A stretch of 64,000 nucleotides of DNA from a virus: the IMG/VR virus record IMGVR_UViG_3300028029_000006, positions 1 through 64,000 of that record. The stretch is one strand, 5' to 3'. The notes under the pieces were generated by a model. It did not search any database and had not been told where the DNA came from. It saw nothing but the letters and a program-made list of their open reading frames with translations. Below, in pieces: positions 22,001-49,881 of this stretch; position 1 is the stretch's first letter; each line of letters begins with the position of its first letter. A program made the translations under genes and the position numbers.

Positions 22001-25000
22001 ATGGCTTTAATTAAAATAGGAGAAGCGTTAACCATTCAACCGAGTGATATCAAAACACCTGAGGCTGTATTGTCAGACCCAGAGGTTTTAGCTAGGTTTG
22101 AAAAAATTGCTGCTGATATTAAGAAAGTTGCCCCCAAGGCTAATGATTTTCTTTATTTTACAGCTATCATGATGCACGCAGCAGAAGCTGCTCTTCTCGA
22201 AGAGAATGGTGATTTAAAAAAAGATTCATCAGGAAACTTTTTAACCTCTTCTTGGATTAAAGAAGGAGAGTCTTGGAAATGGTCTTGCAGTGATTCTACA
22301 GTTTTCCCATTAAAAAATGCCAATCGAGATATTTTTCCAGAAGAGGAATTAGTTAAAGCTCATAAAAAATGGGTTGGGCGGCCTCTTTGTTTAGATCATC
22401 GTTCAGATTCTGTTGATTTTATTCGTGGTATCATCATTGATACTTATTATGATCATTCTAAAAAACGCGTCATTGCATTATGTGCATTAGATAAAAAGAA
22501 TCATCCCGAATTAGCAAGAAAAGTTCAAACATTAACCACAACAGCTGTCTCAATGGGGACTGCCGTAGGTAAAGCTATTTGTACAGATTGTGGCAAAGTT
22601 GCCAGAGCAGAAGCTGATTTCTGTAATCATATGCGTAGTAGAACTTGTTATGGTGAGATTAATGTTGATCTTAACCCAATTGAGCTTTCCATTGTTGTTA
22701 ATGGAGCAGATCCTAAAGCTCATATTCGACACGTAATGGCCGCAGTAGATAATATAGCCAAATATGTTGCTAAAAAAGAAAAAAATATTTCTAAAATTTC
22801 TTCCATGCACGAAATGGTAGATCCTAGTGTTATTTCAGATTTGAAAGATGATTTGAAAAACATTTTAGATAAGATTGAAAAGCTTGAGGAACAAGCTGAA
22901 AGAGTTGAGGGTATTGAAGAGGCTGAAGAGTCAAATGAATATCCTGGCGAAGCAGAGGAAAAAGAAGCTTCATCAAAACAGGAAATGCTAAAGGTAGCAA
23001 AGGTTTTACACGACCTTCACTCAAAAGTAGATCAACTACAGAGTACAATGGATAAATTGCAAAATAATAATGAGGAATCAATAATGAGTAAAAAACAGGC
23101 TTATTTCCAGGGTGGTGGTGGAGTGAATGAACCAACTCCTGGCAAACCAAAATACGAATCAGAAGATTATACTACTGTTCGTGATAAAGAAGATAAACAA
23201 ATGGTTGGTCAAATGGAGACAGGTCCTGTTGATGGGATGCATCCAGGATATTCCAGCTTTGGCGAAACCGAAGAAGCGCGTAAAAAACGTCTTCAAAGAA
23301 TGGCTGCAGAAGCAGAAAAACGAACTTTACGACGTAAAGCAGTTGTTGACCGTGTTAAGAAGTCTCTTGATAAAGATGCTTACTTTCAAGGTGGCGGTGG
23401 AGTGAACGAACCAACTCCTGGCAAACCAAAATACGAATCAGAAGATTACACTACTGTTCGTGATAAAGAAGATAAACAAATGGTTGGTCAATCACCATTT
23501 CCTGACACTGGAGCTATTGACGGTTTACACCCAAGCCCAGCTTCTTGTGATGAAAAAGATGAATTAAAACGTAAGCAAATGCTTTCACGAGCAAAACTTA
23601 GTGGAAAATTTGTTCCCTTCAAAAATGCTGATGGCACAGCCAATAAAGGAAAATATACCTGGAATGTTTTTGCTAATAAAGAATTGATTCTTACTGCTAC
23701 TGTTGATCAAATTACTGGTGGTAAATCTGAATTACTCTTTAGTTCTGTTGCTACTGAAGAATTTGGAAGTAATCTTCTTAATTTAATTCGTAATAATGAT
23801 GTCAAAAAAGTTGTTTCTCTTATTAAGAGTGCACAATTAATGGAAGCTCCTGAAGCTCCGGCTGAAATGGCTCCTCCTGCAATGGAAGAAGCTCTGCCTG
23901 ATGCTGGTGGAACTGGAGAACCTGAAGAGGGAGTTATGGAATTACTTGATGTTGCAGAAAACACTTTATCTGATCTTCGCGAAGCGGTTGAAGCTCTTAC
24001 TGAAGAACCCGGTTCTGAATTAGCTGAATTTGACGAGTTAGCTGGTGAAATGCCAAGAGCAGCTGAAGTATCACGACTTGGAAAACTTCAAGTTAAAATT
24101 GGTAAAGCCGTTCTTGTTGGAATGAAAAAAGCTTCTGCTGAATTAGAAAGCAATATTGAAGAGCTTCAAATGGGTAAGCACATTCAAGCTAACAAAACCC
24201 TTCCAAAAGAGCAGATGAAATATGCAGCTGGATTGATTGGAGCTGCGCTTGAAGATACTAAATCTACTTTAGCTGAATGCCGTAAATTAATGAAGTCATT
24301 TGTTATGTATGCCAAAGGTTCTGAAGCTGTAGAGAAGAAAGCGGCAAAACTTAAATCTGATTTACTTAAAGTTGCTCAACCTGCAGATCCAAATGATCCT
24401 TTAATGGGTCTTGAAGGGGAAATGTTAGACTTAAGTCCTGAAGGATTTGAAGCTGAAGAAGCGGAAAGAGCACGTCAACAGCGATTAGTTGATTACAAAG
24501 CAAAAATGCAACGTCAGCAAGGTGCTGCATATGAAGCTCCAAAAGAAGCTCCAGGTTTATTTGATGTTCCTGAAACAATGGAAGAAGCAAAAAACCAAAG
24601 AGGCGGAGAAGCAGGCGGATACCAAAGTGGATTAACTGGACCATTGTCTGGCCATTCGCCAGGTGGAAATAGGTTGCTTGACGACTTAGATATGGATGAT
24701 GTTGATATGGATGATGCTGATATGAATAATTTAGAAATGGTTCTTCAAGATGGTACGAAAATTACCGCTGCAAAGAAGCTTGATAAAACCACCAAGTCTG
24801 GCCGAGCTGCCATTCGTGAGAAATTAGCTCAAAAAGCACTTCAGTACTCAGATATGCTTGAAAAAGCTCATCCAGGTGGTGGAGAAACAACTCAGTTAGA
24901 TGTTAAGCCTACTGGTGATCTTGCTAAGGTTGAACGTATTGATGAAGTGCAAGCCAGAATGATGGAAGTAGCAACTGCTCCTCCACGTGTTCAGAAAATG

Positions 25001-25513
25001 GCTGCAGAAATTCAAGAACTGGTTATTGAAGGTAAAATCAATCCTGATACTGATTTTCCAGGACTGATTGCTCAAAGCCTTGACCCTGCCGCAGTTAAAT
25101 ACTGGAAAGATTTTTACGGTGAAATTAAAGATGGCGGGAGTGAATTCGCTACTGAATTGGTTAAAGAGATTGCAACCAAAAAGAAAGCTGAAGAAACGCA
25201 AAACCTTCATGTTAAATATGCTCGCGCATATGAATTAGCTGATAATATGGTTAGCAAAGGCATGTTAGCCAATGATCGTACCGCTAAACAGTCACAAATT
25301 AAAGAAATTCTTAAGTTTGATGATAATGCATTTAGTAGCTTCAGAAATTTTGTTGCCCGCCAAGCTACAGTTAAAAAGTTTGCAATGCCTCAGGTTGGAT
25401 TAATGGGAGATTCAGGAGTTTTTCTTCCTGCTCCAGAAGTTAAGCGGTCTGATTTATCAAGTGAATTAGATGCTATGTTTGCCGGAAATGGTCTGAAAAC
25501 TCGTAACTTTTAA
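22001..25513 (+). CDS. Prohead protease fused to long scaffold/core domain
   Basis: NANRDIFPEEEL..PLCLDH..GIIID..AVSMGT..CTDC..CNH..IELSIVVNGADPKA protease-like domain; acidic coiled-coil remainder with many K-x-A motifs. Confidence 0.8.
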   Translation: MALIKIGEALTIQPSDIKTPEAVLSDPEVLARFEKIAADIKKVAPKANDFLYFTAIMMHAAEAALLEENGDLKKDSSGNFLTSSWIKEGESWKWSCSDSTVFPLKNANRDIFPEEELVKAHKKWVGRPLCLDHRSDSVDFIRGIIIDTYYDHSKKRVIALCALDKKNHPELARKVQTLTTTAVSMGTAVGKAICTDCGKVARAEADFCNHMRSRTCYGEINVDLNPIELSIVVNGADPKAHIRHVMAAVDNIAKYVAKKEKNISKISSMHEMVDPSVISDLKDDLKNILDKIEKLEEQAERVEGIEEAEESNEYPGEAEEKEASSKQEMLKVAKVLHDLHSKVDQLQSTMDKLQNNNEESIMSKKQAYFQGGGGVNEPTPGKPKYESEDYTTVRDKEDKQMVGQMETGPVDGMHPGYSSFGETEEARKKRLQRMAAEAEKRTLRRKAVVDRVKKSLDKDAYFQGGGGVNEPTPGKPKYESEDYTTVRDKEDKQMVGQSPFPDTGAIDGLHPSPASCDEKDELKRKQMLSRAKLSGKFVPFKNADGTANKGKYTWNVFANKELILTATVDQITGGKSELLFSSVATEEFGSNLLNLIRNNDVKKVVSLIKSAQLMEAPEAPAEMAPPAMEEALPDAGGTGEPEEGVMELLDVAENTLSDLREAVEALTEEPGSELAEFDELAGEMPRAAEVSRLGKLQVKIGKAVLVGMKKASAELESNIEELQMGKHIQANKTLPKEQMKYAAGLIGAALEDTKSTLAECRKLMKSFVMYAKGSEAVEKKAAKLKSDLLKVAQPADPNDPLMGLEGEMLDLSPEGFEAEEAERARQQRLVDYKAKMQRQQGAAYEAPKEAPGLFDVPETMEEAKNQRGGEAGGYQSGLTGPLSGHSPGGNRLLDDLDMDDVDMDDADMNNLEMVLQDGTKITAAKKLDKTTKSGRAAIREKLAQKALQYSDMLEKAHPGGGETTQLDVKPTGDLAKVERIDEVQARMMEVATAPPRVQKMAAEIQELVIEGKINPDTDFPGLIAQSLDPAAVKYWKDFYGEIKDGGSEFATELVKEIATKKKAEETQNLHVKYARAYELADNMVSKGMLANDRTAKQSQIKEILKFDDNAFSSFRNFVARQATVKKFAMPQVGLMGDSGVFLPAPEVKRSDLSSELDAMFAGNGLKTRNF
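23084..25513 (+). CDS. Candidate nested in-frame scaffold protein (809 aa)
   Basis: Internal SD gagga 23072-23076 with in-frame ATG 23084 at the domain boundary. Confidence 0.5.
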   Translation: MSKKQAYFQGGGGVNEPTPGKPKYESEDYTTVRDKEDKQMVGQMETGPVDGMHPGYSSFGETEEARKKRLQRMAAEAEKRTLRRKAVVDRVKKSLDKDAYFQGGGGVNEPTPGKPKYESEDYTTVRDKEDKQMVGQSPFPDTGAIDGLHPSPASCDEKDELKRKQMLSRAKLSGKFVPFKNADGTANKGKYTWNVFANKELILTATVDQITGGKSELLFSSVATEEFGSNLLNLIRNNDVKKVVSLIKSAQLMEAPEAPAEMAPPAMEEALPDAGGTGEPEEGVMELLDVAENTLSDLREAVEALTEEPGSELAEFDELAGEMPRAAEVSRLGKLQVKIGKAVLVGMKKASAELESNIEELQMGKHIQANKTLPKEQMKYAAGLIGAALEDTKSTLAECRKLMKSFVMYAKGSEAVEKKAAKLKSDLLKVAQPADPNDPLMGLEGEMLDLSPEGFEAEEAERARQQRLVDYKAKMQRQQGAAYEAPKEAPGLFDVPETMEEAKNQRGGEAGGYQSGLTGPLSGHSPGGNRLLDDLDMDDVDMDDADMNNLEMVLQDGTKITAAKKLDKTTKSGRAAIREKLAQKALQYSDMLEKAHPGGGETTQLDVKPTGDLAKVERIDEVQARMMEVATAPPRVQKMAAEIQELVIEGKINPDTDFPGLIAQSLDPAAVKYWKDFYGEIKDGGSEFATELVKEIATKKKAEETQNLHVKYARAYELADNMVSKGMLANDRTAKQSQIKEILKFDDNAFSSFRNFVARQATVKKFAMPQVGLMGDSGVFLPAPEVKRSDLSSELDAMFAGNGLKTRNF
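23099..23491 (+). repeat. 114-bp direct repeat (23099-23212 and 23378-23491) encoding an identical 38-aa peptide
   Basis: AYFQGGGGVNEPTPGKPKYESEDYTTVRDKEDKQMVGQ twice, synonymous differences only. Confidence 0.95.
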
Positions 25514-38019: not shown

Positions 38020-38750
38020 TACCACAGGGAGCCCTTCCGGTTTATGATCGTGATATTGATGTGACTGCAGTAGTCATTTCAGCTCATGGTTCTGGTCCTG
38101 AATCTCGTGTTTTTGGAGATCGTGTTACGATTCCTGAGTTTGAAGTTTATTCAAACCCGACTGTTCGTATCGCTGAAGTGAAAAGACGTAGATTCAACGT
38201 AATTGATCGTGCGGTTCAGAAAGCACGTCAAGAGATTATGGCACAAGAAGACGCTAACGTCTTCGCAGCTCTCGATGCTTCTGCTGTAGTTGAAAACCAA
38301 CCTCAGGATGTTGCTGATGGTGGTCTTCTTAAGCGAGATCTTGTTGAACTTAAGGTTCAGGTTGATCGTTGGGACCTGGTTACGACCAAGTTCTTCATGA
38401 ACATCAATGAATTCACTGATATCCTTAACTGGGCATCTGGTGGTGGACAAGGCGCTGGTGGTGGAGAAGTTGATGCTGTCACGCAGCGAGAGATCCTTCA
38501 AACTGGGCTTTATGCTCACATTTGGGGAGCTGACATCATGGTGTCAAAGATCGTGCCTCCTGGAACGATTTACTCTTGTGCCGATCCTGAATTTGTTGGG
38601 GTCATGCCGATTAGGCAAGATATCGAAGTATTGCCAGCGGATGAACCTCGCAAGCTTAGCCTGGGTTGGGTCGTCTCAGAAATCATTGGAATTGGTATTG
38701 TTAACCCCCGAGGCGTTGCAAAGGGCAGCAAATCCCAAGCACCTGGTTGA
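38020..38750 (+). CDS. Major capsid protein, exon 2
   Basis: PQGALPVYDRD..IPEFEVYSNP..QEDANVF..GLYAHIWGADI..EIIGIGIVNPRGV, HK97-fold-like pattern. Confidence 0.85.
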
Positions 38751-38775: not shown

Positions 38776-38809
38776 AAATAGGGCCGCTGGAATTCCAGCG
38801 GCCTTATTT
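38776..38809. terminator. Bidirectional terminator after MCP
   Basis: aaatagggccgctgg-aatt-ccagcggccttattt between convergent genes. Confidence 0.85.
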
Positions 38810-39855
38810 TATTTGTCCGAATAACGCTTTGAATATCCTTGTATATTATTTTTAATTAGACATTGTGTCTCATCTATTTGATTAAGCAACTTTAAATATA
38901 TTGAATGTTTACGATCCATAAATATATTGGCATCACTGTAAAGCCATTTCATAATTTTTTCTACTTGCCTATTACCAGCCGATGTAACATCAAATACTAC
39001 AGAGTGTTGTGTACTTAAATAAATACCCATGTTTACATTTACATTATCTATAATCACTTTTCTAACTTCTTCTGCAAATTGTTTAATAGAAGTAATTTTA
39101 AAATATGAACTGGCACCTTTTTTAGTGTTAACATAAATACTACCATCGCCATCAAAATAACCTCTTATGAAGTGCTTTTGTAATTCTGAATCTAACCATG
39201 TTGGGAAGGTAATTTTAAATGTCTTAGCTGGCATACAACCTTGCTTCTCTAAAATTGAACAAATGTGTTTACTGTTTATATTCAAATAACAGCTGTAGTA
39301 GTTTTTAAGACCATTTCCTAAATCTCTTTTTCGAGTGCATGATTTTACATGAATTTCGGGATTTTCTTTATAAATCAGTTTGGCAAATTTATGTAAAATA
39401 TCATTATCTTGTTTTTGCAATTCAATTCGCACAAAATTCCCAGATTTAACATTGCCACCATCAGCGTAAAGAAAACCTAAAAAATAAGCTTTTTCTTCTG
39501 TGTTTATCACATCAAAAAAATCTTCATTAATTGGATATTTCCTATGACATTCAGATGAATTACGTATTTCAATATTGTTTCTTTTTAAATATCTAAGAAT
39601 AATCGTATTACTTACATTGTAAGTATTTGCAATTTGTGAGGCAGATTGTCCATCGGAATAAAGTTGACACATATCCTTTATATCTTTATGTAAAAGTTTA
39701 CAAATTTTAGTTCTAATTTTAATATCTTCACTTTTTAATAGTTTAAGTATATATGTTGAAGATCGACTAAATCTCTTAGCTATCTTGGTTGAACCTATGC
39801 CGTTTATATATAGTTTTTTAATATCTTTTTTTTCTTCATCTGTTAATTTCGCCAT
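38809..39855 (-). CDS. LAGLIDADG endonuclease with two N-terminal HTH repeats
   Basis: EKAYFLGFLYADG and HFIRGYFDGDG. Confidence 0.85.
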   Translation of the reverse strand: MAKLTDEEKKDIKKLYINGIGSTKIAKRFSRSSTYILKLLKSEDIKIRTKICKLLHKDIKDMCQLYSDGQSASQIANTYNVSNTIILRYLKRNNIEIRNSSECHRKYPINEDFFDVINTEEKAYFLGFLYADGGNVKSGNFVRIELQKQDNDILHKFAKLIYKENPEIHVKSCTRKRDLGNGLKNYYSCYLNINSKHICSILEKQGCMPAKTFKITFPTWLDSELQKHFIRGYFDGDGSIYVNTKKGASSYFKITSIKQFAEEVRKVIIDNVNVNMGIYLSTQHSVVFDVTSAGNRQVEKIMKWLYSDANIFMDRKHSIYLKLLNQIDETQCLIKNNIQGYSKRYSDK

Positions 39856-39911
39856 TTTAAGCCTTTTTTTTAAGGGGTGCTAGTTAGTCTCTGATGGTTA
39901 TATAAACAACT

Positions 39912-40880
39912 ATGGCACATTTGACTTCACCTCAAATAGATGAAATTATTGAATTATATTTATCTGGAAAATCTCCAAAAGAGATTGGTAATTTGTTTGG
40001 AATTTATAATTCCAGTGTTAGCAGAATAATTCGACGAAATAATATACCATGCAATCAACAAAACAGAATAACAGATGAACAATTATTTTATATTTGTGAA
40101 AATTATGTATTAGGTAATAGCTCTGAGAAAATAGCTAAGGAATTAAATATTAATCCTAGTACAGTTTGTAGGATTTTAAAAAGAAACAATATTAAAATTA
40201 GGGACAACTCAGAAAATAAAAGAAAATACTGGTTGAATAAACATTGGTTAGATGATATTGATTCACAAGAGAAAGCTTATTTCTTGGGGATATTTTGGGC
40301 TGATGGGAGTGTTAGTAAATCTAAAAATGACATTTCTTTACGTCTACACACCAAAGATAGAGACGTATTGACGAAAATATCTCACTTTTTCTATGGAAAA
40401 GATCGTGTTAGTGATTATATTGAAGACACCAACAAGGTCAGCACACCTGTGTCAAGGATATCCTTGTATTCAGAATATTTAAAAAACAGGATGAAATGTT
40501 TAGGAATTAAGCCTAACAAGTCTAAACAGATTAAATTTCCGACTAAAAAAGCAATTAAAAGCAGTTTATTATCTCATTTCATTCGAGGCTTGTTGGATGG
40601 TGATGGTTGTATATGTATAAGGCGAAATGGCAGAGCTACTGTTGACTTCACTGGAAATACATATGTGATTAACGCTTTGAATTATAAATTATTGAAGCTT
40701 GATTTTAATAATAGAGTTTATTATAGTGAAATTAAAGATTCGTGGTCATTACAAATTAATAGTGATAGTAATATTATTAATTTTTTAGATTGGATTTATA
40801 AGGATAGTACAATTCATTTGGAAAGGAAATATGCAAAATATAGAGAAATCAAAAATAGATCAGATCAAACAAATGACTGA
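39912..40880 (+). CDS. LAGLIDADG endonuclease with two N-terminal HTH repeats
   Basis: EKAYFLGIFWADG and HFIRGLLDGDG. Confidence 0.85.
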   Translation: MAHLTSPQIDEIIELYLSGKSPKEIGNLFGIYNSSVSRIIRRNNIPCNQQNRITDEQLFYICENYVLGNSSEKIAKELNINPSTVCRILKRNNIKIRDNSENKRKYWLNKHWLDDIDSQEKAYFLGIFWADGSVSKSKNDISLRLHTKDRDVLTKISHFFYGKDRVSDYIEDTNKVSTPVSRISLYSEYLKNRMKCLGIKPNKSKQIKFPTKKAIKSSLLSHFIRGLLDGDGCICIRRNGRATVDFTGNTYVINALNYKLLKLDFNNRVYYSEIKDSWSLQINSDSNIINFLDWIYKDSTIHLERKYAKYREIKNRSDQTND

Positions 40881-42453
40881 AGAAGGGTATTCTGCGAGAA
40901 AAATTGCGAGAAATCTAGATATTAAGTTCACAAAAGTTAAGGAAATTGTTAAAAGCAACGAATTTTCAATTAAAAAAGAGTTATTTGATTATGATTTAAT
41001 TGATAGTATAATTAGATTATATGAATTAGGTGTTTCTGCTAAGAATTTGGGTATTAAATTTTCTATTGATAAGAGAAGAGTGCAGCGTTGGGCTAAAGAG
41101 AAGGGTCTTTTAAGAGAGAGAGGTGGTGATAATCGATTAAAACATCAAATTAAAGTTAAACCTATCACAGCTAAGAAAATTATTGAGTCTATTATTGTCC
41201 CTAAAAAGGTAGAGAAGGTTAGGGTGGAGAAAAAGATTTCTGTTTTAAAGCCTTGTTTGAGCGAGAACCCTAATTTAAGACCTGAAAAGAAAAAATGGGT
41301 TGGAGAGATTAATTTTCCAAAGACTAATAATATAAGTAATGATCATGACACATTAATTTATAATGATCATTTAATTTGGAAAGGCAATAAATTAACGGAT
41401 AAATTTTTAAGAACTGTTGATGAGGAAGCTAGAGATGAGATTGGTAAAGATATTTTTAATTTCTATCTTAAGTATGATTTTGGTAATTTCAGAGTTCCTG
41501 AGGATAGAATTAAGAGAAGCATGTTATCTTTGAAAGCATATAAACCTAAAAGTGAAATTATTGATGATATTGTTTATTTATCTAATTCTGGGACTACAGG
41601 TTATGATGTATATAAAGGTTTTTTTCCAAATATAATTAAGATTAAAGGAGTTGGTCGTCCATCTGTATATGATGTTGTTACTAATAGAGAGAAGTTATGG
41701 GCAACTATAAGGAATAGGTTGGGAAATACTTTATTATGGAATCCTGGTGGGGGAACGCCTGTACAGTTCCCAATGAATCAAACATTGTCTCAATTATTAA
41801 TTGGGGCTAAGAATTCTGGTTTGGCTAGTATGGGTTCTATTTTTAAGCCGACTGTAGCTAAGGCTATTTATCAGCAGTGGGCTGGAAATGATTTTAATGT
41901 ATTGGATTATTCATGTGGTTTTGGTACTAGATTGTTGGGTTTAATGGGTTGTGGTTTTGATAATGTTAAGTATTTTGGATATGAACCTAATACAGAAACT
42001 TATAATGGTTTAATTAAGATGATTGATTATTTTGATTTTGATGCTAAGATTAAAAAATGCGGTTCTGAGGTGGAGTGTTTTTCTGAGAAGATGGATTTGG
42101 CATTTAGTTCTCCTCCATATTGGACTCAGGAGATTTATAGTGACGAGGCTACTCAGTGTTATAACAAATTTACTGAGTATAAAGATTGGTTGAAGGGTTA
42201 TTGGAGAGCTACTGTTAAGAATATAAACTTTATGTTAAAGGATGATGGTGTGTTTGGGATTAATATTGGCGGACAATCAAATCCTTTAATGCAAAAATTA
42301 GCTGATGATCTTAATAAAATTATTGTTGATGAGGGTTTTGAGTTAACTGATACTTGGTATATGAAAACAAGCAAAAGTCATTTATCTGGTAAGAAAAATA
42401 ATCCTAATAAGAAGATTAAATTGGAAGGGATCTTTTTTTATAAGAAAAGATAA
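40831..42453 (+). CDS. Amino-(N4C/N6A) DNA methyltransferase fused to N-terminal HTH repeats
   Basis: Motif I VLDYSCGFG, motif IV FSSPPY; HTH YSARKIARNL and VSAKNLGIKF. Confidence 0.8.
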   Translation: MQNIEKSKIDQIKQMTEEGYSARKIARNLDIKFTKVKEIVKSNEFSIKKELFDYDLIDSIIRLYELGVSAKNLGIKFSIDKRRVQRWAKEKGLLRERGGDNRLKHQIKVKPITAKKIIESIIVPKKVEKVRVEKKISVLKPCLSENPNLRPEKKKWVGEINFPKTNNISNDHDTLIYNDHLIWKGNKLTDKFLRTVDEEARDEIGKDIFNFYLKYDFGNFRVPEDRIKRSMLSLKAYKPKSEIIDDIVYLSNSGTTGYDVYKGFFPNIIKIKGVGRPSVYDVVTNREKLWATIRNRLGNTLLWNPGGGTPVQFPMNQTLSQLLIGAKNSGLASMGSIFKPTVAKAIYQQWAGNDFNVLDYSCGFGTRLLGLMGCGFDNVKYFGYEPNTETYNGLIKMIDYFDFDAKIKKCGSEVECFSEKMDLAFSSPPYWTQEIYSDEATQCYNKFTEYKDWLKGYWRATVKNINFMLKDDGVFGINIGGQSNPLMQKLADDLNKIIVDEGFELTDTWYMKTSKSHLSGKKNNPNKKIKLEGIFFYKKR

Positions 42454-42459
42454 TTAAAA

Positions 42460-45400
42460 ATGAAAGAATTAATAATAAAATTAGCTGAAAAGTATAGTGC
42501 CAATGGATCTTTTGTGAGTTTTGAACATGATGGTAAATTGAGCGAAGAATCCCAAAAAAAATTTAAAGATAATATAGATTGGGCTTACATTTCTCAATTT
42601 GAAGTGTTATCTGAAGATTTCATTAGAGAATTTAAAGATAAAGTAAATTGGATGTATGTATCTTTTTATCAAGATTTATCAGAGAATTTTATTAGAGAAT
42701 TTCAAGATAAAGTAGATTGGGTTAAAATATCTTCTTACCAAAAGTTATCAGAAGAGTTTATTAAAGAGTTTAAAGATAAAGTAGATTGGTTTTCTATATC
42801 TTATAATCAAAATTTATCTAAAAAGTTTAAAAAAGAATTCCAACATAAATTAAATCCAGAATCAAAAAAAGAAGTTATGAAAAATTCATTAAAAGAAGAA
42901 ATTAAGAAAATTGCCAAATTAAGTGATTGTTCAGGGATGGTATTTAATGATAATGGTAAATTAACTGAAAAATCAAGGAAAAAATTTAAAGATAAAGTAA
43001 ATTGGATGTATGTATCTTTTTATCAAGATTTATCAGAGAATTTTATTAGAGAATTTCAAGATAATGTAGATTGGTTTTGGTTATCTTGTGGTAATAATCC
43101 TGAAGATTTTATTCGAGAATTCAGCCATAAAGTAGATTGGAAATCTATATCTTCTAATCAGAATTTACCTGAAGAGTTTATTCGAGAATTCAGCCATAAA
43201 GTAGATTGGGTTTGGATATCTAGACGTCCGAATTTATCTAAAGAATTCGAAAAAGAGTTTCAATATAAATTAAATGAAGCTATGAAAGATTCATTAAAAG
43301 AAGAATTTGAGGATAATATAAATTGGTTAAAGGTATCTGAATCTCAAAAGTTATCTGAAAATTTTATTAGAGAGTTTCAAGATAAAGTAGATTGGGGTTA
43401 TATATCTTGTTATCAAGATTTATCTGAAAATTTTATTAGAGAGTTTCAAGATAAAGTAGTTTGGTTAAATATATCTAAATCTCAAAAATTATCTAAAGAT
43501 TTCAAAAAAGAATTCCAACATAAATTAAATCCAGAATCAAAAAAAGAAGTTATGAAAGATTCATTAAAAAAAGAAATTATATATCTTGCTCGTTTAAATA
43601 ATTGTTTAGATATGACGTTTGATGAAGATACTGGTAAGCTAACAACAAAATCAAAAGAAGAATTTAAAGAGAGAGTATTTTTAACTTGTCACCATGAAGA
43701 ATTATCTGAAGATTTCATTATAGAGTTTCAAAATGAAATAGGTTGGACATCTATATCTATTTATCAAAATTTATCAGAGAATTTCATGAGAGAATTTCAG
43801 CATGAATTAAATTGGGTTAATATATCTAGATGTCAAAAGTTATCTGAAGATTTTATTAGAAATTTTCAACATAAAGTAGATTGGTTTTGTATATCTAAAT
43901 ATCAGGTATTATCTGAAGATTTTATTAGAGAATTTCAAGGTAGAGTTAATTGGCCTGAAATATCTTGTAACCAAGTATTATCAGAAGATTTCAAGGAAGA
44001 ATTTAAACATAAATTGAATCAAACAAGAATAAATGAAATTGATTTTTTTAAAAACCTCCATAACGAGACAAATTCGGAATCGCTATCTACAGAATTTTTT
44101 ATAGAACTACAACATAAACTAGATATAGATAAATTAAATTCAGGCTTAAAAAAAGAAATTAAGAAAATTGCCAAATTAAATAATTGTTCAGAGATGATGT
44201 TTAATTGTTATAATGGTGAATTAACTAAAAAATCAAGAGAAGAGTTTATAAATAAAGTAGATTGGATAGCTATATCTACTCAAAAACTATCAGAAGATTT
44301 CATTAAAGAATTTCAAGATGAAGTAGATTGGCGTAATATATCTAATAATCAAAAACTATCAGAAGGTTTTATAAGAGAATTCAAAGATAAAGTGTGGTGG
44401 TATGAAATATCCATTAATCAAAAACTATCAGAAGGTTTTATAAGAGAATTCAAAGATAAAGTGTGGTGGTATGAAATATCCATATATCAAAAGTTATCTG
44501 AAGAGTTTACTAAAGAATTTAAAGATAAAGTAGTTTGGTTAAATATATCTCATAAGCAAAATTTATCTGAAGATTTTATTAAAGAATTTCAAAATAAAGT
44601 AAATTGGATTAATATTTCTTATCACCAAAACTTATCAGAAGGTTTTATTAAAGAATTTAAAGATGAAGTAGATTGGGATGGTATATCTAATAATCAAAAA
44701 CTATCCGAAGATTTCATTAGAGAATTTCAAAATAAAGTAAATTGGTTTTCTATATCTTATAATCAAAATTTATCTAAAAAGTTTAAAAAAGAATTCCAAC
44801 ATAAATTAAATCCAGAATCAAAAAAAGAAGTTACGAAAGATTCATTAAAAGAAGAAATTAAGAAAATTGCCAAATTAAGTTATTGTTCAGAGATGGCGTT
44901 TGATTATTATAACGGTAAATTAACTGAAAAATCAAGGAAAAAATTTAAAGATAAAGTAGATTGGTACAATATATCTAGTTGGCAAGACTTATCTGAAGAG
45001 TTTATTAAAGAATTTCAAGATGAGGTATGTTGGGGTGATATATCTTGTTATCAAAAATTATCAGAAGGTTTTATTAGAGAATTTCAAGATGAGGTATGTT
45101 GGGGTGATATATCTTGTTATCAAAAATTATCAGAAGGTTTTATTAGAGAATTTCAAGATAAAGTAGATTGGGTTAACATATCTCATAAGCAAATTTTGTC
45201 TGAAGATTTTATTAGAGAGTTTCAAGATAAAGTATGTTGGCACTACATATCTTTAAGTCAGGTATTATCAGAAAAGTTTAAAGAAGAGTTTCAGCATAAA
45301 TTAGATCCAACAAAGAAAAAAACAAAAATAGATCTAGTAAAACAATCTGGAAATAAAATTAAAGATTCAATCAAACATGGAATTGCAGTTGGAGCTGCTA

Positions 45401-45792
45401 CAGAAGCGATTAATTATGTGTTTAATTTAATATCAAAACAACTTGGGTTATCAGAAGAAGCTTTAAATAATCCAGTTAAACGAGAATTAGTTATGGGGTT
45501 AAGTTTAGCTGCACTTCATATAGGATCTACCGTTTTCCAAGATCAAATTCCTGGAATGGATAAGGTTCAAACTGGATGCGAATTAGTCATTGAAGGTAAA
45601 AGCAAAGATAATTTTTCAGCAATGGTGAAACATCTTGCACCTGTTTTAATTAAATCTTCAAATTTAATGGATCCTAAGCAATACCTTTCCAATTCCATTA
45701 AAGAAAACAGTTTAATTGAAAAAGAACTATCTTCAAAAGAAGAAATTGAAGAAATTGAAATTACATATGATTTAGAAAGAGAAACAATATGA
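42460..45792 (+). CDS. Tryptophan-repeat (23-aa) multi-module solenoid protein
   Basis: About 28 repeats of LSEDFIREFQDKVDWxxISxxQx in six capped blocks; unique C-terminal domain. Confidence 0.85.
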   Translation: MKELIIKLAEKYSANGSFVSFEHDGKLSEESQKKFKDNIDWAYISQFEVLSEDFIREFKDKVNWMYVSFYQDLSENFIREFQDKVDWVKISSYQKLSEEFIKEFKDKVDWFSISYNQNLSKKFKKEFQHKLNPESKKEVMKNSLKEEIKKIAKLSDCSGMVFNDNGKLTEKSRKKFKDKVNWMYVSFYQDLSENFIREFQDNVDWFWLSCGNNPEDFIREFSHKVDWKSISSNQNLPEEFIREFSHKVDWVWISRRPNLSKEFEKEFQYKLNEAMKDSLKEEFEDNINWLKVSESQKLSENFIREFQDKVDWGYISCYQDLSENFIREFQDKVVWLNISKSQKLSKDFKKEFQHKLNPESKKEVMKDSLKKEIIYLARLNNCLDMTFDEDTGKLTTKSKEEFKERVFLTCHHEELSEDFIIEFQNEIGWTSISIYQNLSENFMREFQHELNWVNISRCQKLSEDFIRNFQHKVDWFCISKYQVLSEDFIREFQGRVNWPEISCNQVLSEDFKEEFKHKLNQTRINEIDFFKNLHNETNSESLSTEFFIELQHKLDIDKLNSGLKKEIKKIAKLNNCSEMMFNCYNGELTKKSREEFINKVDWIAISTQKLSEDFIKEFQDEVDWRNISNNQKLSEGFIREFKDKVWWYEISINQKLSEGFIREFKDKVWWYEISIYQKLSEEFTKEFKDKVVWLNISHKQNLSEDFIKEFQNKVNWINISYHQNLSEGFIKEFKDEVDWDGISNNQKLSEDFIREFQNKVNWFSISYNQNLSKKFKKEFQHKLNPESKKEVTKDSLKEEIKKIAKLSYCSEMAFDYYNGKLTEKSRKKFKDKVDWYNISSWQDLSEEFIKEFQDEVCWGDISCYQKLSEGFIREFQDEVCWGDISCYQKLSEGFIREFQDKVDWVNISHKQILSEDFIREFQDKVCWHYISLSQVLSEKFKEEFQHKLDPTKKKTKIDLVKQSGNKIKDSIKHGIAVGAATEAINYVFNLISKQLGLSEEALNNPVKRELVMGLSLAALHIGSTVFQDQIPGMDKVQTGCELVIEGKSKDNFSAMVKHLAPVLIKSSNLMDPKQYLSNSIKENSLIEKELSSKEEIEEIEITYDLERETI

Positions 45793-46421
45793 AAACAAAT
45801 GATATTTATTGTGGTGATGCTTTAGATTTACTAGAAACAATGGATAATAATCCAAATCTCATTATTATGAGTCCTCCAGATATAGCAGAGACAAGTTATT
45901 CACTACCAGAATATAAAAATTTCCTTAAAAAGGTATATGGTTTAGCTGTTAGTAAACTAAGTAAGAATGGTGTTATTGCATCTATTACTACAGATAGAAA
46001 AATGAAAGGAAAAATATATACCAAACATGTGGATATTATTAATTTTACAGATTTAAATCTTTTTAATTACAAAATTTGGGCAAAATCACTTAAAACAAAT
46101 CTTTATATTCTTAATTATTGTCATATGTTGTTTTTCAGGAATAAAAAGTGTACAAATAATAAAGTTAAAGAATATTATCCAGATGTTTGGTTGATTGAAT
46201 TAGATAAATTGCCTTGGTATCCTAGCAAAGATAGTTTTCCTAGTGAATTAATTGAAAGAATAATTCTTAATTTCACAAATCCAGGAGATTTAGTATTAGA
46301 TCCATTCATTGGATCTGGAAAAACAGCTAATATGTGTATTAAAAATGATAGAGAATTCCTTGGATTTGATTTAGATCCGAAAATGATTGAATTAACAAAG
46401 AAACATTTAAACATTTCTTAA
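45789..46421 (+). CDS. Beta-class N4/N6 methyltransferase-like protein with atypical SPPD
   Basis: CGDAL..IIMSPPD..FPSELIERII..GDLVLDPFIGSG. Confidence 0.8.
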   Translation: MKTNDIYCGDALDLLETMDNNPNLIIMSPPDIAETSYSLPEYKNFLKKVYGLAVSKLSKNGVIASITTDRKMKGKIYTKHVDIINFTDLNLFNYKIWAKSLKTNLYILNYCHMLFFRNKKCTNNKVKEYYPDVWLIELDKLPWYPSKDSFPSELIERIILNFTNPGDLVLDPFIGSGKTANMCIKNDREFLGFDLDPKMIELTKKHLNIS

Positions 46422-46428
46422 GGTGAAT

Positions 46429-47034
46429 ATGAATAAAATAACAAAATATTACACTTATCTAAAAATGAAATTTGGAATTGAGGTAAAATTATCAGAAGAG
46501 TTTATTAGAGAGTTTAAGGATGAAGTAGATTGGTTTTATATATCTAGTAAACAAAAATTATCTGAGAGTTTCATTAGAGAATTTCAAGATGAGGTATGTT
46601 GGGTTGAAGTATATGTTAATCAAGTGTTATCTGAGGATTTTATTAGAGAATTTCAAGATAAAGTAAATTGGAGGTATATATCTCAATTTCAAAAATTATC
46701 CGAAGATTTCATTAAAGAATTTCAAAATAAAGTACATTGAGATTACATATCTGCTTATAAAGAATTATCAGAAGATTTCATTAGAGAATTTAAAAATAAA
46801 ATAGATTGGCACCAAATATTTATTTTTCAAAAATTATCAGAAGATTTTTTAATAGAATTTAAAAATAGGGCAGATTGTATAGATTGGGCTAAAATATCTT
46901 GTTATCAAACATTATCTGAAGAGTTTATTAGAGAGTTTAAAGATAAAGTAGATTGGTATAATATATCTAAATGTCAAGATTTATCTGATAAATTCTTAAA
47001 ACAAATGTATTATAAATATAAAAAATTAAAATAA
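46429..47034 (+). pseudogene. Second Trp-repeat gene interrupted by in-frame TGA (46738-46740)
   Basis: Repeats continue in frame after TGA (KVH*DYISAYKELSEDF..) to TAA at 47032-47034. Confidence 0.75.
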
Positions 47035-47098
47035 TTATATTATTTTTATTAAAACTCAACAAAACATTCCAAAGGCAATATTTTAACATATTTTTGAT

Positions 47099-47911
47099 AT
47101 GAGCATCAAAAACAAAACATTGCCTTTGGATGGGTGTGTCAATTTAGTTAATAGCTTAGTAGAAGACTTCGTTAAAACAGCTGATACTGGAGCAGAATTC
47201 CCCTCTAAGAAGGATTATAAAGTTATTTCAAGGGATGAGCCGGCTCTTGTTAAAAGAGCCGCTAGAATGGCTGCTATGAAGTCTTTGCAAATAACCCCAT
47301 TAACAAAACTTGCCTTTGATACTCGAAGAGTTGACCAAAAAACAGAAAGAGTCCCAAGAGCAAACCTGCAACATTGGAATAGATCCCAACAATTTCTTGA
47401 TGATGAAGTTAAAGAAAAAATCAAATCATTCTCAAAATTACTTCCATCACTAGAACAAATTAAAAGTAAATACGGTCATCATCCAGAATATTTCCAAAGC
47501 TACGCCAAAACCCTGTTAGATTCAGTTAAAAGAATAGCAAGAGTTGGCGAAAGTGAAATGGATATATTTAGACCACAAGTTGATTATTTAGAACAATTAT
47601 TATTTACTCGTTATAGATTAAGTCTAGACGAAATAACAAAATCTTCCAAATCCAAAATTTATGACAAACTCATGAAAAAAGATGAAGATCTTGTTAAAAG
47701 AGACGCTTACCTTAAAATGACTGGTGACTCTCAAGAAGAAAATACCAAAAACTCCTCAACTAATTTTGCCAAAGATGGTAACTCTCTAAATGATACAACT
47801 CAAGATAGTATTATTAGCGCCATTTTCGGGAATCAAGATTTAAGAAGAGATGGTGAAAAAAAAGTAGAACGAACTATTACTATTACTATTAAGGATGAGG
47901 TAATTGATTAA
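47099..47911 (+). CDS. Hypothetical virion protein
   Basis: VKTA, KRAA, TKLA motifs. Confidence 0.55.
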   Translation: MSIKNKTLPLDGCVNLVNSLVEDFVKTADTGAEFPSKKDYKVISRDEPALVKRAARMAAMKSLQITPLTKLAFDTRRVDQKTERVPRANLQHWNRSQQFLDDEVKEKIKSFSKLLPSLEQIKSKYGHHPEYFQSYAKTLLDSVKRIARVGESEMDIFRPQVDYLEQLLFTRYRLSLDEITKSSKSKIYDKLMKKDEDLVKRDAYLKMTGDSQEENTKNSSTNFAKDGNSLNDTTQDSIISAIFGNQDLRRDGEKKVERTITITIKDEVID

Positions 47912-48522: not shown

Positions 48523-49881
48523 ATGACAACTCGCAAAAATGCATTAGATCAACAATTAGATGTAAAAGGTTCATTAAACCAAAATTCATCTAAAAATCTA
48601 ACAGATGAAACCAATTTTTTTGGCCAAGCAATTACAGGTCAAACAGGATCTTCTATTAGTATTGATTCCGTCACTTCTGGAATCGTAACAACCTCTGGAT
48701 TAACAGGAATGTCCTCTGCCTCAATTGGTAGATTTATTACAATTACCAATGCAACTACACTTGCTAATAATGGCACTTTTTTAATTACATCTTTTATCTC
48801 TCCAACTTCAATTACTTATTCCAATTCATCAGCAATATCTCCCGATGCCAATAATGGCTCAATCTCTTGGACTGAAAGAGAACCATATTCATTAGAAGAC
48901 AATCTAAATTTCACCAGAACTGATAGAGCCAACATTAAAGGTACAAGTTTTGATGATGATATCCCTACTTACACAAGACCTGATGATACTCTAACAGATG
49001 TATCAGCAAATCTTACCAATATTGCCAGTAAAACATTAGATGCACACGCTTGGGTAGAATCAAGATTCCTTGAATCAATTTCTGTTTCGACTAGCGATAG
49101 CTTTATTACAGTTTCTGATCTAGGAAATCTAAAACACGCTGATTCTACTAATATTTTAGGCATCCCAATTACAGATGGCTATGATTCAGGAAATGAAAGA
49201 TCCGCATTCGTTGAAATTGTTGACGCAGAAATTGATGGTTATGGAGATGGCGCTAACCTTAGAGTTCTAAATGGCGCTAGAACCGGTGAAAGAATTATTG
49301 GATTAACAAGAGAAGGATCTTCCACTTCTCCTAACTCAGTTGAAATTGAATTTTTCTCCATTGTAGTTGGCAATTGGTCTCTATCTTCTCTTACCCCTTA
49401 TTCTTGGGAAGCAGATCAGCCAAATACTATCAATATTTGTTATGGATATAGGCAAAGATTAGACCTTTTTAATGAAAATGCTACTAGAGAAGGTCTTATT
49501 AAAGGTTATCTTAGTGATATTTATGGAACTGGTAATTCTGGAGGAGGTAGTGGAGGCGGTTTATCAGAAGAGCAACATAAAACTTTACGTCATTTAATTC
49601 ATTTTATTGATGATGGACCAGGGGATGGTTTTGCTTCAGGAGCATTTAAAGAAATTTTACCTCAAGGAAACCCATTTCATACATCCGAAACTTGGTATGT
49701 ATCAGCAGCTAAAACTAATAAAATTGTTGAACTAATTATTACTAGAGGATCTGGACAAAAACCCATTCTAGAAATTTGGAATATTTATGATACCGATGGA
49801 TCAACTATTTTAGCTTCAATATCTGACGCTATTTCTTATACAGGTCCATTTGAAGATTCTCGCACAAGAGTTATTAGCTGA
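48523..49881 (+). CDS. Putative tail/structural protein (Ser/Thr-rich)
   Basis: NNGTFLITS motif; Gly linker before C-terminal domain. Confidence 0.5.
   Translation: MTTRKNALDQQLDVKGSLNQNSSKNLTDETNFFGQAITGQTGSSISIDSVTSGIVTTSGLTGMSSASIGRFITITNATTLANNGTFLITSFISPTSITYSNSSAISPDANNGSISWTEREPYSLEDNLNFTRTDRANIKGTSFDDDIPTYTRPDDTLTDVSANLTNIASKTLDAHAWVESRFLESISVSTSDSFITVSDLGNLKHADSTNILGIPITDGYDSGNERSAFVEIVDAEIDGYGDGANLRVLNGARTGERIIGLTREGSSTSPNSVEIEFFSIVVGNWSLSSLTPYSWEADQPNTINICYGYRQRLDLFNENATREGLIKGYLSDIYGTGNSGGGSGGGLSEEQHKTLRHLIHFIDDGPGDGFASGAFKEILPQGNPFHTSETWYVSAAKTNKIVELIITRGSGQKPILEIWNIYDTDGSTILASISDAISYTGPFEDSRTRVIS

What the first reader, a model, noticed from the sequence alone, without database searches (positions are those of the whole stretch)
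42460..45792. Hypervariable Trp-repeat polyprotein: six capped solenoid modules resembling a natural binder library
Seen: a constant 23-aa (69-bp) framework LSEDFIREFQDKVDW-xx-IS-xx-Q with two hypervariable di-residues (AY/QF, MY/FY, VK/SY, FS/YN, FW/CG, VW/RR, GY/CY, FC/KY, RN/NN, YE/IN, LN/HK, DG/NN, GD/CY, HY/LS). Repeats form six blocks of 3-8, each with an N-cap (LKEEIKKIAKL..C..M.F..GKLT, truncated in block 3) and a C-cap (LSKKFKKEFQHKL). Exact DNA copies occur in tandem (~44347/44416, ~45010/45079) and at a distance (~42629/42983, ~42785/44741), indicating recent recombinational shuffling. A unique hydrophobic C-terminal domain follows. Inference: a diversifying multi-specific binder (anti-defence or host recognition), or a repeat code reader like TALE/PPR.
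Basis: partly seen in the sequence, partly recalled or inferred. Interest (0 to 1): 0.8.

Follow-up and report, generated by a model that had tools for sequence, protein, structure and literature searches.

The report
Six-module tryptophan-repeat binder protein
A 409-kb uncultured phage encodes a 1110-residue protein made of six self-contained helical-repeat modules, each with its own variable surface, joined to a tail that probably pairs two copies; it is an unusually large member of a viral protein family that has a name but has never been studied, and it most likely binds other proteins.

Summary
ORF 42460-45792 (+) is intact and encodes 1110 aa. It has six capped modules of 2-8 repeats of 23 residues, then a helical C-terminal domain. 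The reported exact DNA copies exist (69-93 nt).

It belongs to the viral 'tryptophan repeat gene family' (PHROG 3532; annotated in Bacillus phage BpSp). This scan has already met the family several times on other DNA, in phages and giant viruses. Pfam, NCBIfam and the PDB hold no counterpart.

AlphaFold gives a confident two-helix solenoid (pLDDT 95). The four hypervariable positions lie at i, i+1, i+4 and i+5 of helix B, which is its exposed face. They are rich in Tyr, Cys, His and Trp and change at or above the neutral rate; the framework is strongly conserved.

The protein is acidic and shows 159 different residue quadruplets in 175 repeats. That argues against a TALE/PPR-type code and for protein binding.

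Each module equals one stand-alone paralog; the genome has about 33. The gene grew by internal duplication. There is no reverse transcriptase, so no active diversifier. The C-terminal domain is not unique (five genomic copies) and is predicted to form a homodimer.

Relatives lack these genes at the same position: they are accessory cargo in a homing-endonuclease hot spot. The bound targets are unknown.

The parts
42460..45792 (+). Complete CDS, 1110 aa: six tryptophan-repeat solenoid modules plus a C-terminal helical domain
   Evidence: PHROG 3532 E 9.6e-232.
42460..42876 (+). Module 1 (res 1-139): N-cap, 4 repeats, C-cap and linker
   Evidence: Hypervariable residues AY/QF, MY/FY, VK/SY, FS/YN.
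42877..43281 (+). Module 2 (res 140-274): starts at an internal Met; N-cap, 4 repeats, C-cap
43282..43551 (+). Module 3 (res 275-364): truncated N-cap that runs straight into a repeat, 2 full repeats, C-cap
43552..44145 (+). Module 4 (res 365-562): N-cap, 5 repeats (the first is degenerate and lacks Trp), C-cap, and an extra degenerate C-cap-like piece
44146..44829 (+). Module 5 (res 563-790): N-cap, 8 repeats, C-cap. This is the modelled module.
   Evidence: AlphaFold2 pLDDT 95.1, pTM 0.87. Helix A is repeat positions 3-8 and helix B is positions 15-21.
44830..45303 (+). Module 6 (res 791-948): N-cap, 5 repeats, C-cap
   Evidence: Modelled at pLDDT 85-98.
45304..45789 (+). C-terminal domain (res 949-1110): four long helices and an acidic tail; predicted homodimer
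   Evidence: pLDDT 73-86. (ipSAE 0.53 against best control 0.00). (rare domain; 5 copies in the genome). No Pfam or PDB match.
42785..42877 (+). 93-nt exact copy of 44741-44833. It covers the last repeat, C-cap and linker of the M1-M2 and M5-M6 junctions.
   Evidence: The junction alignment shows near-identity over about 250 nt.
44346..44483 (+). Exact tandem duplication of one 69-nt unit
45009..45159 (+). Tandem duplication with an 82-nt exact run (45009/45078)
46423..47037 (+). Second, single-module family member (about 7 repeats), interrupted by an in-frame TGA (46738-46740) exactly at the conserved Trp codon
   Evidence: PHROG 3532 E 1e-30.
45789..46421 (+). N6/N4 DNA methyltransferase gene. 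Its start overlaps the stop of the repeat gene (ATGA). It belongs to the same inserted block.
   Evidence: Pfam PF01555 E 7e-23. It is the only clear copy in the genome.

Best explanation
The gene encodes a soluble, multivalent protein-binding scaffold of the viral tryptophan-repeat family.

Fold. Each 23-residue unit folds into two short helices (positions 3-8 and 15-21). The units stack into an alpha-solenoid, closed by an N-terminal cap (a helix plus a small hairpin) and a C-terminal cap. W15, I18, S19 and the F/I residues of helix A build the core.

Variable surface. Positions 16, 17, 20 and 21 form the opposite, solvent-facing side of helix B. Stacked repeats therefore present a continuous variable stripe. 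Each of the six modules carries a different stripe, so each would recognise a different surface.

C-terminal domain. It is predicted to pair two chains, which would give a particle with twelve modules.

Origin. The gene arose from a family member of one or two modules by unequal recombination between repeats and by duplication of whole junctions. The diversity is inherited (gene and repeat birth and death in a repertoire of about 33 genes). It is not generated anew in each infection.

Likely role. The block containing the gene is accessory cargo, so the protein most likely acts inside the infected cell on host or phage proteins, for example by sequestering or bridging them.

What is shown and what is inferred. 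Shown: the architecture, family membership, variability pattern, selection contrast, duplication history and accessory status. Predicted: the fold and the dimer. Inferred: binding itself, and the targets.
For: Architecture and family:
- Module and repeat layout.
- PHROG 3532 E 9.6e-232.
- tblastn to Listeria phage LPJP1 (25 places), Bacillus phage G (16) and BpSp (17), the last under genes annotated 'putative tryptophan repeat gene family protein'.
- At least 3000 homologs with E<=1e-5.
- About 33 ORFs and 175 repeats in this genome. The stand-alone paralogs have the same N-cap at their own Met and the same C-cap.

Fold:
- AlphaFold2 pLDDT 95.1, pTM 0.87, with two helices per repeat.
- The same fold appears in ESM Atlas clusters of Uroviricota and Nucleocytoviricota (rmsd 2.0-2.6 A over 141-152 residues, TM by row up to 0.83).

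Variable face:
- Entropy 3.2-3.95 bits at positions 16, 17, 20, 21 against at most about 1.2 bits at framework positions.
- Enrichment over the phage proteome: Tyr 5.0x, Cys 3.8x, His 2.7x, Trp 2.3x.
- dN/dS is 0.12-0.14 for the framework, 0.8-0.9 for intermediate positions and 1.3-1.6 for hypervariable codons (bootstrap 95% ranges 0.98-1.85, 1.24-1.79, 1.40-1.85).

Adaptor use elsewhere: fusions to protein kinase, Tyr/dual-specificity phosphatase and poly(A)-polymerase head domains, and to F-box, DarT and DUF7666 domains. AMV254, an entomopoxvirus tryptophan-repeat protein, is reported to carry an F-box (PMC7728225).

Growth by duplication: exact copies of 69-93 nt. The M1-M2, M3-M4 and M5-M6 junctions are nearly identical in DNA.

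Dimer: ipSAE 0.53, best of 3 controls 0.00. The three runs agree in at least 95% of contacts and the partner's pLDDT is at least 74. That mark was reached by 20 of 30 proteins solved as pairs of one chain and by 1 of 23 solved as single chains; these counts hold only roughly, because my own alignment was used.

Accessory status:
- Relatives keep the flanking genes in the same order, but the slot is empty or holds only homing endonucleases and an HTH-methyltransferase.
- None of the 13 loci has a repeat gene.
- None of five related partial genomes (608 kb in all) has one.
Against: - No binding partner is known, and none could be proposed from context.
- The hypervariable codons are close to saturation (pS about 0.5, pN about 0.6). 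Repeat pairs are not independent. A ratio of 1.3-1.6 therefore cannot separate positive selection from complete relaxation.
- No coordinates were available to me. 'One face' rests on the DSSP string and helix geometry, not on measured solvent exposure.
- The dimer is a prediction. The hydrophobic helices could instead contact a membrane or another protein.
- The gene lies inside the virion-gene block, so a virion-associated role is not excluded.
- Population-level variation could not be examined.
- The module count depends on a metagenome assembly.
Confidence: 0.6

Rival explanations
1. Neutral-surface reading. The protein is a structural or spacer-like solenoid, possibly virion-associated. 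Positions 16, 17, 20 and 21 vary only because exposed residues of a repeat protein are unconstrained. There are no specific ligands.
For: dN/dS at the variable codons is only a little above 1, and the sites are saturated. The gene sits between head and tail/virion genes: terminase, portal and prohead protease lie upstream and virion genes downstream. Several family copies in the genome carry stop codons, which is typical of dispensable genes.
Against: The composition at these four positions is far from the proteome background (Tyr 5x, Cys 3.8x, His 2.7x, Trp 2.3x; Leu, Val, Ala and Pro depleted 3-6 fold). Unconstrained drift does not predict that. The other exposed, moderately variable positions (4, 14, 23) give ratios of 0.8-0.9, lower than the four hypervariable ones. 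The syntenic slot is empty in relatives, so the gene is not part of the conserved virion module. The same solenoid is repeatedly fused to enzymes and F-box domains.
Confidence: 0.2
2. Repeat-code reader of nucleic acid, like TALE or PPR proteins. Each repeat would read one base through its variable di-residues.
For: It has a modular repeat with two variable di-residues at fixed positions. There is a weak structural resemblance to PPR10 (Z 5.3, rmsd 7.1 A over 207 residues), no better than to ankyrin or HEAT proteins. Two DNA methyltransferase genes flank it.
Against: Net charge is about -26 and pI 5.5; five of the six modules are acidic and the sixth is neutral. There are 101 and 86 distinct di-residues and 159 distinct quadruplets in 175 repeats, not a small alphabet. 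The variable residues are dominated by Tyr, Asn, Ser, Cys and His, not by the base-contacting sets of TALE or PPR. The repeat length is 23, against 34 or 35. There is no Pfam PPR or TAL hit. The methyltransferase association does not recur in the genome.
Confidence: 0.04
3. Membrane-tethered array. The moderately hydrophobic C-terminal helices insert into or lie on the host membrane and anchor the six modules there. This can coexist with the binder reading.
For: The two most hydrophobic stretches of the protein lie in this domain (res 974-992 and 1009-1027). They are Gly/Ala-rich helices. Structure search gives weak helical-hairpin similarities to channel and pore proteins, among many others (Z up to 5.9).
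Against: The best 19-residue hydropathy is 1.22, below the usual 1.6 cut-off, and the stretches contain Glu, His, Thr and Asn. The same helices form the predicted dimer interface with about 175 confident contacts. No signal peptide or other membrane feature was seen.
Confidence: 0.12
4. Assembly artefact. The true gene has fewer modules or a different order, and the six-module ORF comes from mis-joined paralogous repeats.
For: The record is a metagenome assembly. In-register exact repeats of 69-93 nt exist inside the gene, and about 33 paralogs exist elsewhere. Joins made in register would keep the frame open.
Against: Most of the 3.3 kb is unique at the DNA level: repeats are about 65-80% identical, and only 11 exact runs of 33 nt or more were found. 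Multi-module relatives of 882 and 1446 aa exist independently, and one is identical in two assemblies. The 662- and 751-aa paralogs in this genome also have two modules.
Confidence: 0.08

Closest known systems
'Tryptophan repeat gene family'. The name comes from entomopoxvirus genome annotation. It is also used for Bacillus phage vB_BpuM-BpSp gp053-gp058 and for phage G gp556/gp560 (PMC12484599).
   Same: The same 23-residue unit with the L-S-E-x-F-I ... W-x-x-I-S-x-x-Q signature. Significant similarity (BpSp E 3e-31, phage G 6e-55, LPJP1 7e-81). A multigene family in very large viral genomes. Function unknown.
   Different: In BpSp the six units are six separate tandem genes. Here six complete units are fused in one frame and followed by a dimer-forming domain. 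Similarity to the founding entomopoxvirus ORFs was not tested here.
Ankyrin-repeat multigene families of poxviruses (ANK plus PRANC/F-box) and designed ankyrin binders (DARPins)
   Same: Capped two-helix solenoids with a fixed framework and a few variable surface positions per repeat. They are expanded as paralog families in large viruses and used as target-recognition adaptors. Some tryptophan-repeat proteins also carry F-boxes.
   Different: The repeat is 23 residues, not 33. There is no beta-hairpin finger and no Pfam ANK hit. The structural match is only generic (RNase L ankyrin domain: Z 5.5, rmsd 6.0 A over 188 residues). No F-box was found in this protein.
Leucine-rich repeat variant (LRV, PDB 1lrv) and PBS-lyase HEAT-like short two-helix repeats
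   Same: Very short (about 24-residue) repeats of two small helices that form a right-handed solenoid. The nearest ESM Atlas clusters carry weak HEAT_PBS or LRV_2 labels on 10-31% of members.
   Different: Z is only 4.9 (rmsd 6.0 A over 170 residues). There is no sequence-level hit. The conserved Trp/Ile/Ser core signature is specific to this family.
TALE and PPR repeat-code proteins
   Same: Tandem helical repeats with specificity residues at fixed positions.
   Different: This protein is acidic, has a huge residue alphabet and a shorter repeat, and shows no nucleic-acid-binding features.

Membership tests
Tryptophan repeat gene family (viral) | Tandem units of about 23 residues with an invariant Trp and the L-S-E-x-F-I / W-x-x-I-S-x-x-Q signature | tested here: met
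   29 repeats. W15, L1, F9 and S19 are invariant in the 26 canonical units.
Tryptophan repeat gene family (viral) | Significant sequence similarity to proteins annotated as family members | tested here: met
   tblastn to BpSp genes annotated 'putative tryptophan repeat gene family protein' (E 3e-31, 83% of the query). The same motif is seen in BpSp gp055. PHROG 3532 E 9.6e-232.
Tryptophan repeat gene family (viral) | Occurs as an expanded paralog family in a large viral genome | tested here: met
   55 matching places, about 33 ORFs and 175 repeats in the 409-kb record.
Tryptophan repeat gene family (viral) | Similarity to the founding entomopoxvirus ORFs (MSV/AMV) | not tested
   No entomopoxvirus sequence was available in the collections I searched. 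The link rests on the shared annotation name.
Ankyrin repeat (Pfam Ank clan) | 33-residue repeat that matches the Pfam ankyrin models | tested here: not met
   No Pfam hit at E<=0.1. The period is 23 residues.
TALE / PPR code readers | 34/35-residue repeat, a small specificity alphabet, and a basic nucleic-acid-binding surface | tested here: not met
   23-residue repeat; 159 quadruplets in 175 repeats; net charge -25.6.
LRV / HEAT_PBS short helical repeats | Sequence or fold match to LRV (1lrv) or the HEAT_PBS models | tested here: inconclusive
   No Pfam hit. VIA Z 4.9 to 1lrv, within the generic range for solenoids. Weak labels on Atlas neighbours.
Diversity-generating retroelement target | A reverse transcriptase and a template repeat in the same genome | tested here: not met
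   No PF00078 match in the 409-kb record, while the control genomes matched.
F-box substrate adaptor | An F-box domain on the same polypeptide | tested here: not met
   No F-box hit in this protein. The N-caps are solenoid caps in the model. F-boxes do occur on other family members.

The most novel reading that the evidence does not exclude
The protein is a natural 'binders on a string'. Six independently capped solenoid modules with different Tyr/Trp/His-rich recognition stripes are doubled to twelve by a C-terminal dimer. This phage lineage acquired the roughly 33-gene repertoire and expanded it. The repertoire would work as an inherited, antibody-like panel that captures several different host proteins at once, for example defence proteins. 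The five proteins that share the C-terminal domain might also pair with each other in mixed combinations.
Probability: 0.25. Interest if true: 0.75.

Novelty: new member of a known kind. Interest (0 to 1): 0.45.

Why it matters
The tryptophan-repeat family is very large: at least 3000 homologs passed E<=1e-5 in a single capped search. It spans jumbo phages and giant viruses. Yet it has no Pfam model, no solved structure and no known function. If the family members are target-specific binders, they would be a major and overlooked class of virus-host interaction modules. They would also be a compact (23-residue) natural scaffold for binder engineering. This gene is a convenient entry point. It shows that complete modules can be chained, that recent duplications are still visible in the DNA, and that the array is coupled to a probable dimerisation domain. 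It adds little that is conceptually new beyond what this scan has already recorded for the family.

Tried and rejected
- **Family and structure libraries.** Pfam, NCBIfam and PDB sequence searches gave no meaningful hit. A profile search of the PDB gave only a spurious match to engineered OspA repeats.
- **Fold search, solenoid module.** Foldseek against the PDB found nothing below E 0.3. VIA-align against 48,161 chains gave a best Z of 5.5, which is generic for solenoids.
- **Fold search, C-terminal domain.** Foldseek found nothing below E 1. VIA gave Z up to 5.9 on helical hairpins only.
- **DGR-type diversification.** Rejected, because the genome has no reverse transcriptase.
- **Internal translation starts.** No Shine-Dalgarno-like sequence precedes the internal Met codons, or the gene's own start.
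- **Read-through of the TGA in the neighbouring family gene.** The genome encodes no tRNA with anticodon TCA.
- **Recurrent link to methyltransferases.** Not found; the genome has only one clear N6/N4 methyltransferase.
- **Promoter and terminator scan of 38.5-47.6 kb.** No more sites than in shuffled sequence.
- **Population variation.** The exact protein is not on record. Exact 32/33-mers from the locus found nothing in viral or metagenome contigs. The search for related loci with the C-terminal domain or with the 270-aa neighbour found nothing, and the domain alignment was too divergent to use.
- **Literature.** I found no functional study of the family. The founding 1999 entomopoxvirus paper is not held.
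- **Model coordinates.** The script box does not expose them, so surface exposure could not be measured.
Full report
**1. What is in the sequence**

The stretch 42460-45792 is one open frame on the + strand, 1110 codons long. Tandem Repeats Finder reports a 69-nt period across it.

Cutting the protein at the recurring L-S-E motif gives 29 units, nearly all of exactly 23 residues. They fall into six blocks of 4, 4, about 3, 5, 8 and 5 units.
- Each block opens with a cap of the form LKEEIKKIAKL..C..M.F...GKLT. The cap of block 3 is truncated.
- Each block closes with LSKKFKKEFQHKL and a short charged linker.
- Residues 949-1110 are non-repetitive.

- L1, S2, E3, F5, I6, E8, F9, W15, I18, S19 and Q22 are nearly invariant.
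- Positions 16, 17, 20 and 21 reach 3.2-3.95 bits over the 175 repeats of the genome.

**2. What it belongs to**

The protein matches no Pfam or NCBIfam model and no PDB sequence. It does match PHROG 3532 at E 9.6e-232, plus PHROGs 22019 and 11920; all three have unknown function.

tblastn finds many copies in jumbo phages of Gram-positive hosts: Listeria phage LPJP1 (25 places), Bacillus phage G (16) and vB_BpuM-BpSp (17). In BpSp the match lies on six tandem genes annotated 'putative tryptophan repeat gene family protein', and these show the same 23-residue signature. The name comes from entomopoxvirus annotation. The phage G paper calls its members 'of unknown function' (PMC12484599).

One module used as a query retrieved 3000 proteins at E<=1e-5, the cap of that search. 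The nearest ESM Atlas clusters are almost all from giant viruses and phages. This scan has already followed up the same family on several other genomes.

**3. The family in this genome**

The window is the first 64 kb of a 409-kb virus record estimated to be 96% complete. That record has 55 matching places, about 33 ORFs and 175 canonical repeats.

The stand-alone paralogs are single modules. They begin at their own Met with the same cap (MKELIKKIAK..C.EM.F...GKL), carry 3-10 repeats, and end with the same C-cap. Each of the six blocks of the 1110-aa protein is therefore one complete family member. Three of the internal blocks still begin with a Met.

The DNA of the M1-M2, M3-M4 and M5-M6 junctions is nearly identical over the C-cap, the linker and the start of the next N-cap. 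This means whole junctions were duplicated inside the gene. Separate genes did not fuse five separate times.

Two paralogs, of 662 and 751 aa, have two modules and the same C-terminal domain. They are plausible models of the precursor.

Longer multi-module relatives exist in other phage-like contigs (1446 and 882 aa, with a different Gly/Ala-rich C-terminal domain). The chained architecture therefore recurs.

**4. Fold and the variable face**

AlphaFold2 with 100 homologs models module 5 at pLDDT 95.1 and pTM 0.87.
- Every repeat has helix A at positions 3-8 and helix B at positions 15-21.
- The N-cap is a helix plus a small hairpin.

In helix B, residues W15, I18 and S19 fall on one side. Positions 16, 17, 20 and 21 (the i, i+1, i+4, i+5 pattern) fall on the opposite side. 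Stacked repeats would therefore carry a continuous variable stripe. This is an inference from the secondary-structure string and helix geometry, because I had no coordinates. Position 14 is mostly D, N or S, as expected of a helix N-cap.

No solved structure matches. Foldseek gives a best E of 0.3. An exhaustive VIA-align search gives a best Z of 5.5, to ankyrin, PPR, LRV and HEAT solenoids alike. Predicted structures of viral proteins in the ESM Atlas superpose at 2.0-2.6 A over 141-152 residues.

**5. Is the variable face a binding surface?**

Four observations point to protein binding.
- **Composition.** Relative to the phage proteome, the four positions are enriched in Tyr (5.0x), Cys (3.8x), His (2.7x) and Trp (2.3x). 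They are depleted in Leu, Val, Ala and Pro. This resembles protein-interface hot spots, and drift would not produce it.
- **Substitution rates.** Pairs of repeats were chosen on framework identity only. The dN/dS ratio is 0.12-0.14 for framework codons, 0.8-0.9 for the moderately variable positions 4, 14 and 23, and 1.3-1.6 for the four hypervariable codons. The variable codons are near saturation, so I read this as 'at or above neutral', not as proof of positive selection.
- **No code.** There are 159 distinct quadruplets in 175 repeats. The protein has net charge about -26 and pI 5.5. A nucleic-acid code such as TALE or PPR is unlikely.
- **Fusion partners.** The solenoid is a promiscuous fusion partner. 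It is joined to protein kinase, Tyr/dual-specificity phosphatase and poly(A)-polymerase head domains, and to F-box, DarT and DUF7666 domains. An entomopoxvirus member is reported to carry an F-box (PMC7728225). That is the pattern of a targeting or adaptor domain.

The genome has no reverse transcriptase. A 1446-aa relative is identical in two assemblies. The diversity is therefore an inherited repertoire, not an active mutagenesis system.

**6. The C-terminal domain**

Residues 949-1110 are predicted as four long helices followed by an acidic tail (pLDDT 73-86). The domain has no Pfam model and no fold match.

It is rare. An exhaustive search of 1.84 billion representatives gave only 23 hits at E<=0.001. 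In those proteins it follows quite different N-terminal parts, including MORN-like repeats. This genome has five copies: four on tryptophan-repeat proteins and one on a MORN-like repeat protein.

Its hydropathy peaks at 1.22, below the transmembrane range.

A two-copy complex prediction passed.
- The score was ipSAE 0.53, and the best of three controls scored 0.00.
- The three runs agreed in at least 95% of contacts, and the partner's pLDDT was at least 74.
- This mark was reached by 20 of 30 proteins solved as pairs of one chain and by 1 of 23 solved as single chains.
- These counts hold only roughly, because my own alignment was used.
- The interface uses the hydrophobic helices.

The prediction supports dimerisation as the reason for the domain's hydrophobicity. 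It does not demonstrate it.

**7. Genomic setting**

Terminase, portal and a prohead-protease-like gene lie upstream in the window.

The local gene order is:
- two LAGLIDADG endonuclease genes (38809-39855 on the minus strand, and 39912-40880);
- an HTH-methyltransferase gene (40831-42453);
- the repeat gene;
- an N6/N4 methyltransferase gene whose start overlaps the repeat gene's stop (45789-46421);
- a second, small family member (46423-47037).

Thirteen loci from related phages were found through the neighbouring gene 48523-49881, whose products are 43-51% identical. The loci with enough upstream flank keep the same order: the 38061 homolog (83% identical), then the slot, then the 47099, 47912 and 48523 homologs.
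- In two of them the slot is an empty gap of about 200-290 nt.
- In three it holds only endonucleases and the HTH-methyltransferase.
- None of the 13 loci contains a repeat gene.

Five related partial genomes, 608 kb together, have no family member at all. The segment 42454-47098 is therefore lineage-specific accessory cargo in an endonuclease hot spot. It is not a conserved virion component.

**8. Verdict**

The gene is an unusually large member of a named but unstudied viral solenoid family, with six modules and a probable dimerising tail.

A protein-binding adaptor or scaffold role is the best-supported mechanism; I put it at about 0.6. The targets are unknown. The TALE/PPR idea, a cleaved polyprotein and an actively diversifying library are not supported.

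As a family finding this repeats earlier results of the scan. The new points are the chained-module architecture, its origin by duplication, the shared dimer-forming tail, and the accessory, lineage-specific status of the gene.

Noticed in passing
window 46423-47037 (+): The small family member downstream has its only in-frame stop (TGA, 46738-46740) exactly at the conserved Trp codon of a repeat. Reading through it restores a 204-aa protein of about seven repeats. This is most simply a TGG-to-TGA nonsense mutation in a decaying paralog. The genome encodes no tRNA with anticodon TCA.
   Followed up: partly
genome G000:C1:250663-250734 (outside the window): ARAGORN calls a tRNA with anticodon CTA, an amber-suppressor type, among the 21 tRNAs of the phage. 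I did not check whether any genes carry in-frame TAG codons.
   Followed up: no
window 38809-47098: The slot between the conserved genes 38061-38750 and 47099-47911 is an insertion hot spot inside the structural module. It is empty in some relatives. In others it holds one or two LAGLIDADG endonucleases and an HTH-methyltransferase. A strong terminator-like hairpin sits at 38776-38809.
   Followed up: partly
genome G000:C1:241383-241844, 244211-244618, 266169-266636, 316903-317319: The rare helical C-terminal domain occurs on five proteins of this phage. One copy is on a MORN-like repeat protein instead of tryptophan repeats. If the domain pairs, mixed dimers are conceivable.
   Followed up: partly
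genome G000:C1:181314-182654, 200376-201221, 209914-211113, 381675-382538: Four other paralogs end in a different conserved domain of about 130 residues. The same domain dominates the database homologs and is labelled DUF7666/DUF1699 in ESM Atlas clusters. My own Pfam scan of one copy gave no hit.
   Followed up: partly
window 42420-42459 and internal Met codons of the ORF: No Shine-Dalgarno-like sequence precedes the start of the repeat gene. The upstream sequence is A/T-rich only. This may reflect the translation-initiation habits of the unknown host.
   Followed up: no
window 22001-25513 (+): A 1170-aa ORF carries a head-maturation-protease-like segment near its N-terminus (res 106-214; PHROG 18299 E 2.3e-13). 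The rest is unassigned.
   Followed up: no
locus L006 8001-12341 (NCBI assembly GCA_043956575.1) and L007: A 1446-aa relative with at least four capped modules is letter-identical in two separate assemblies. It ends in a different Gly/Ala-rich helical domain with an acidic tail, and an 882-aa relative shares that domain. This suggests that 'solenoid array plus helical tail' is a recurring design.
   Followed up: partly
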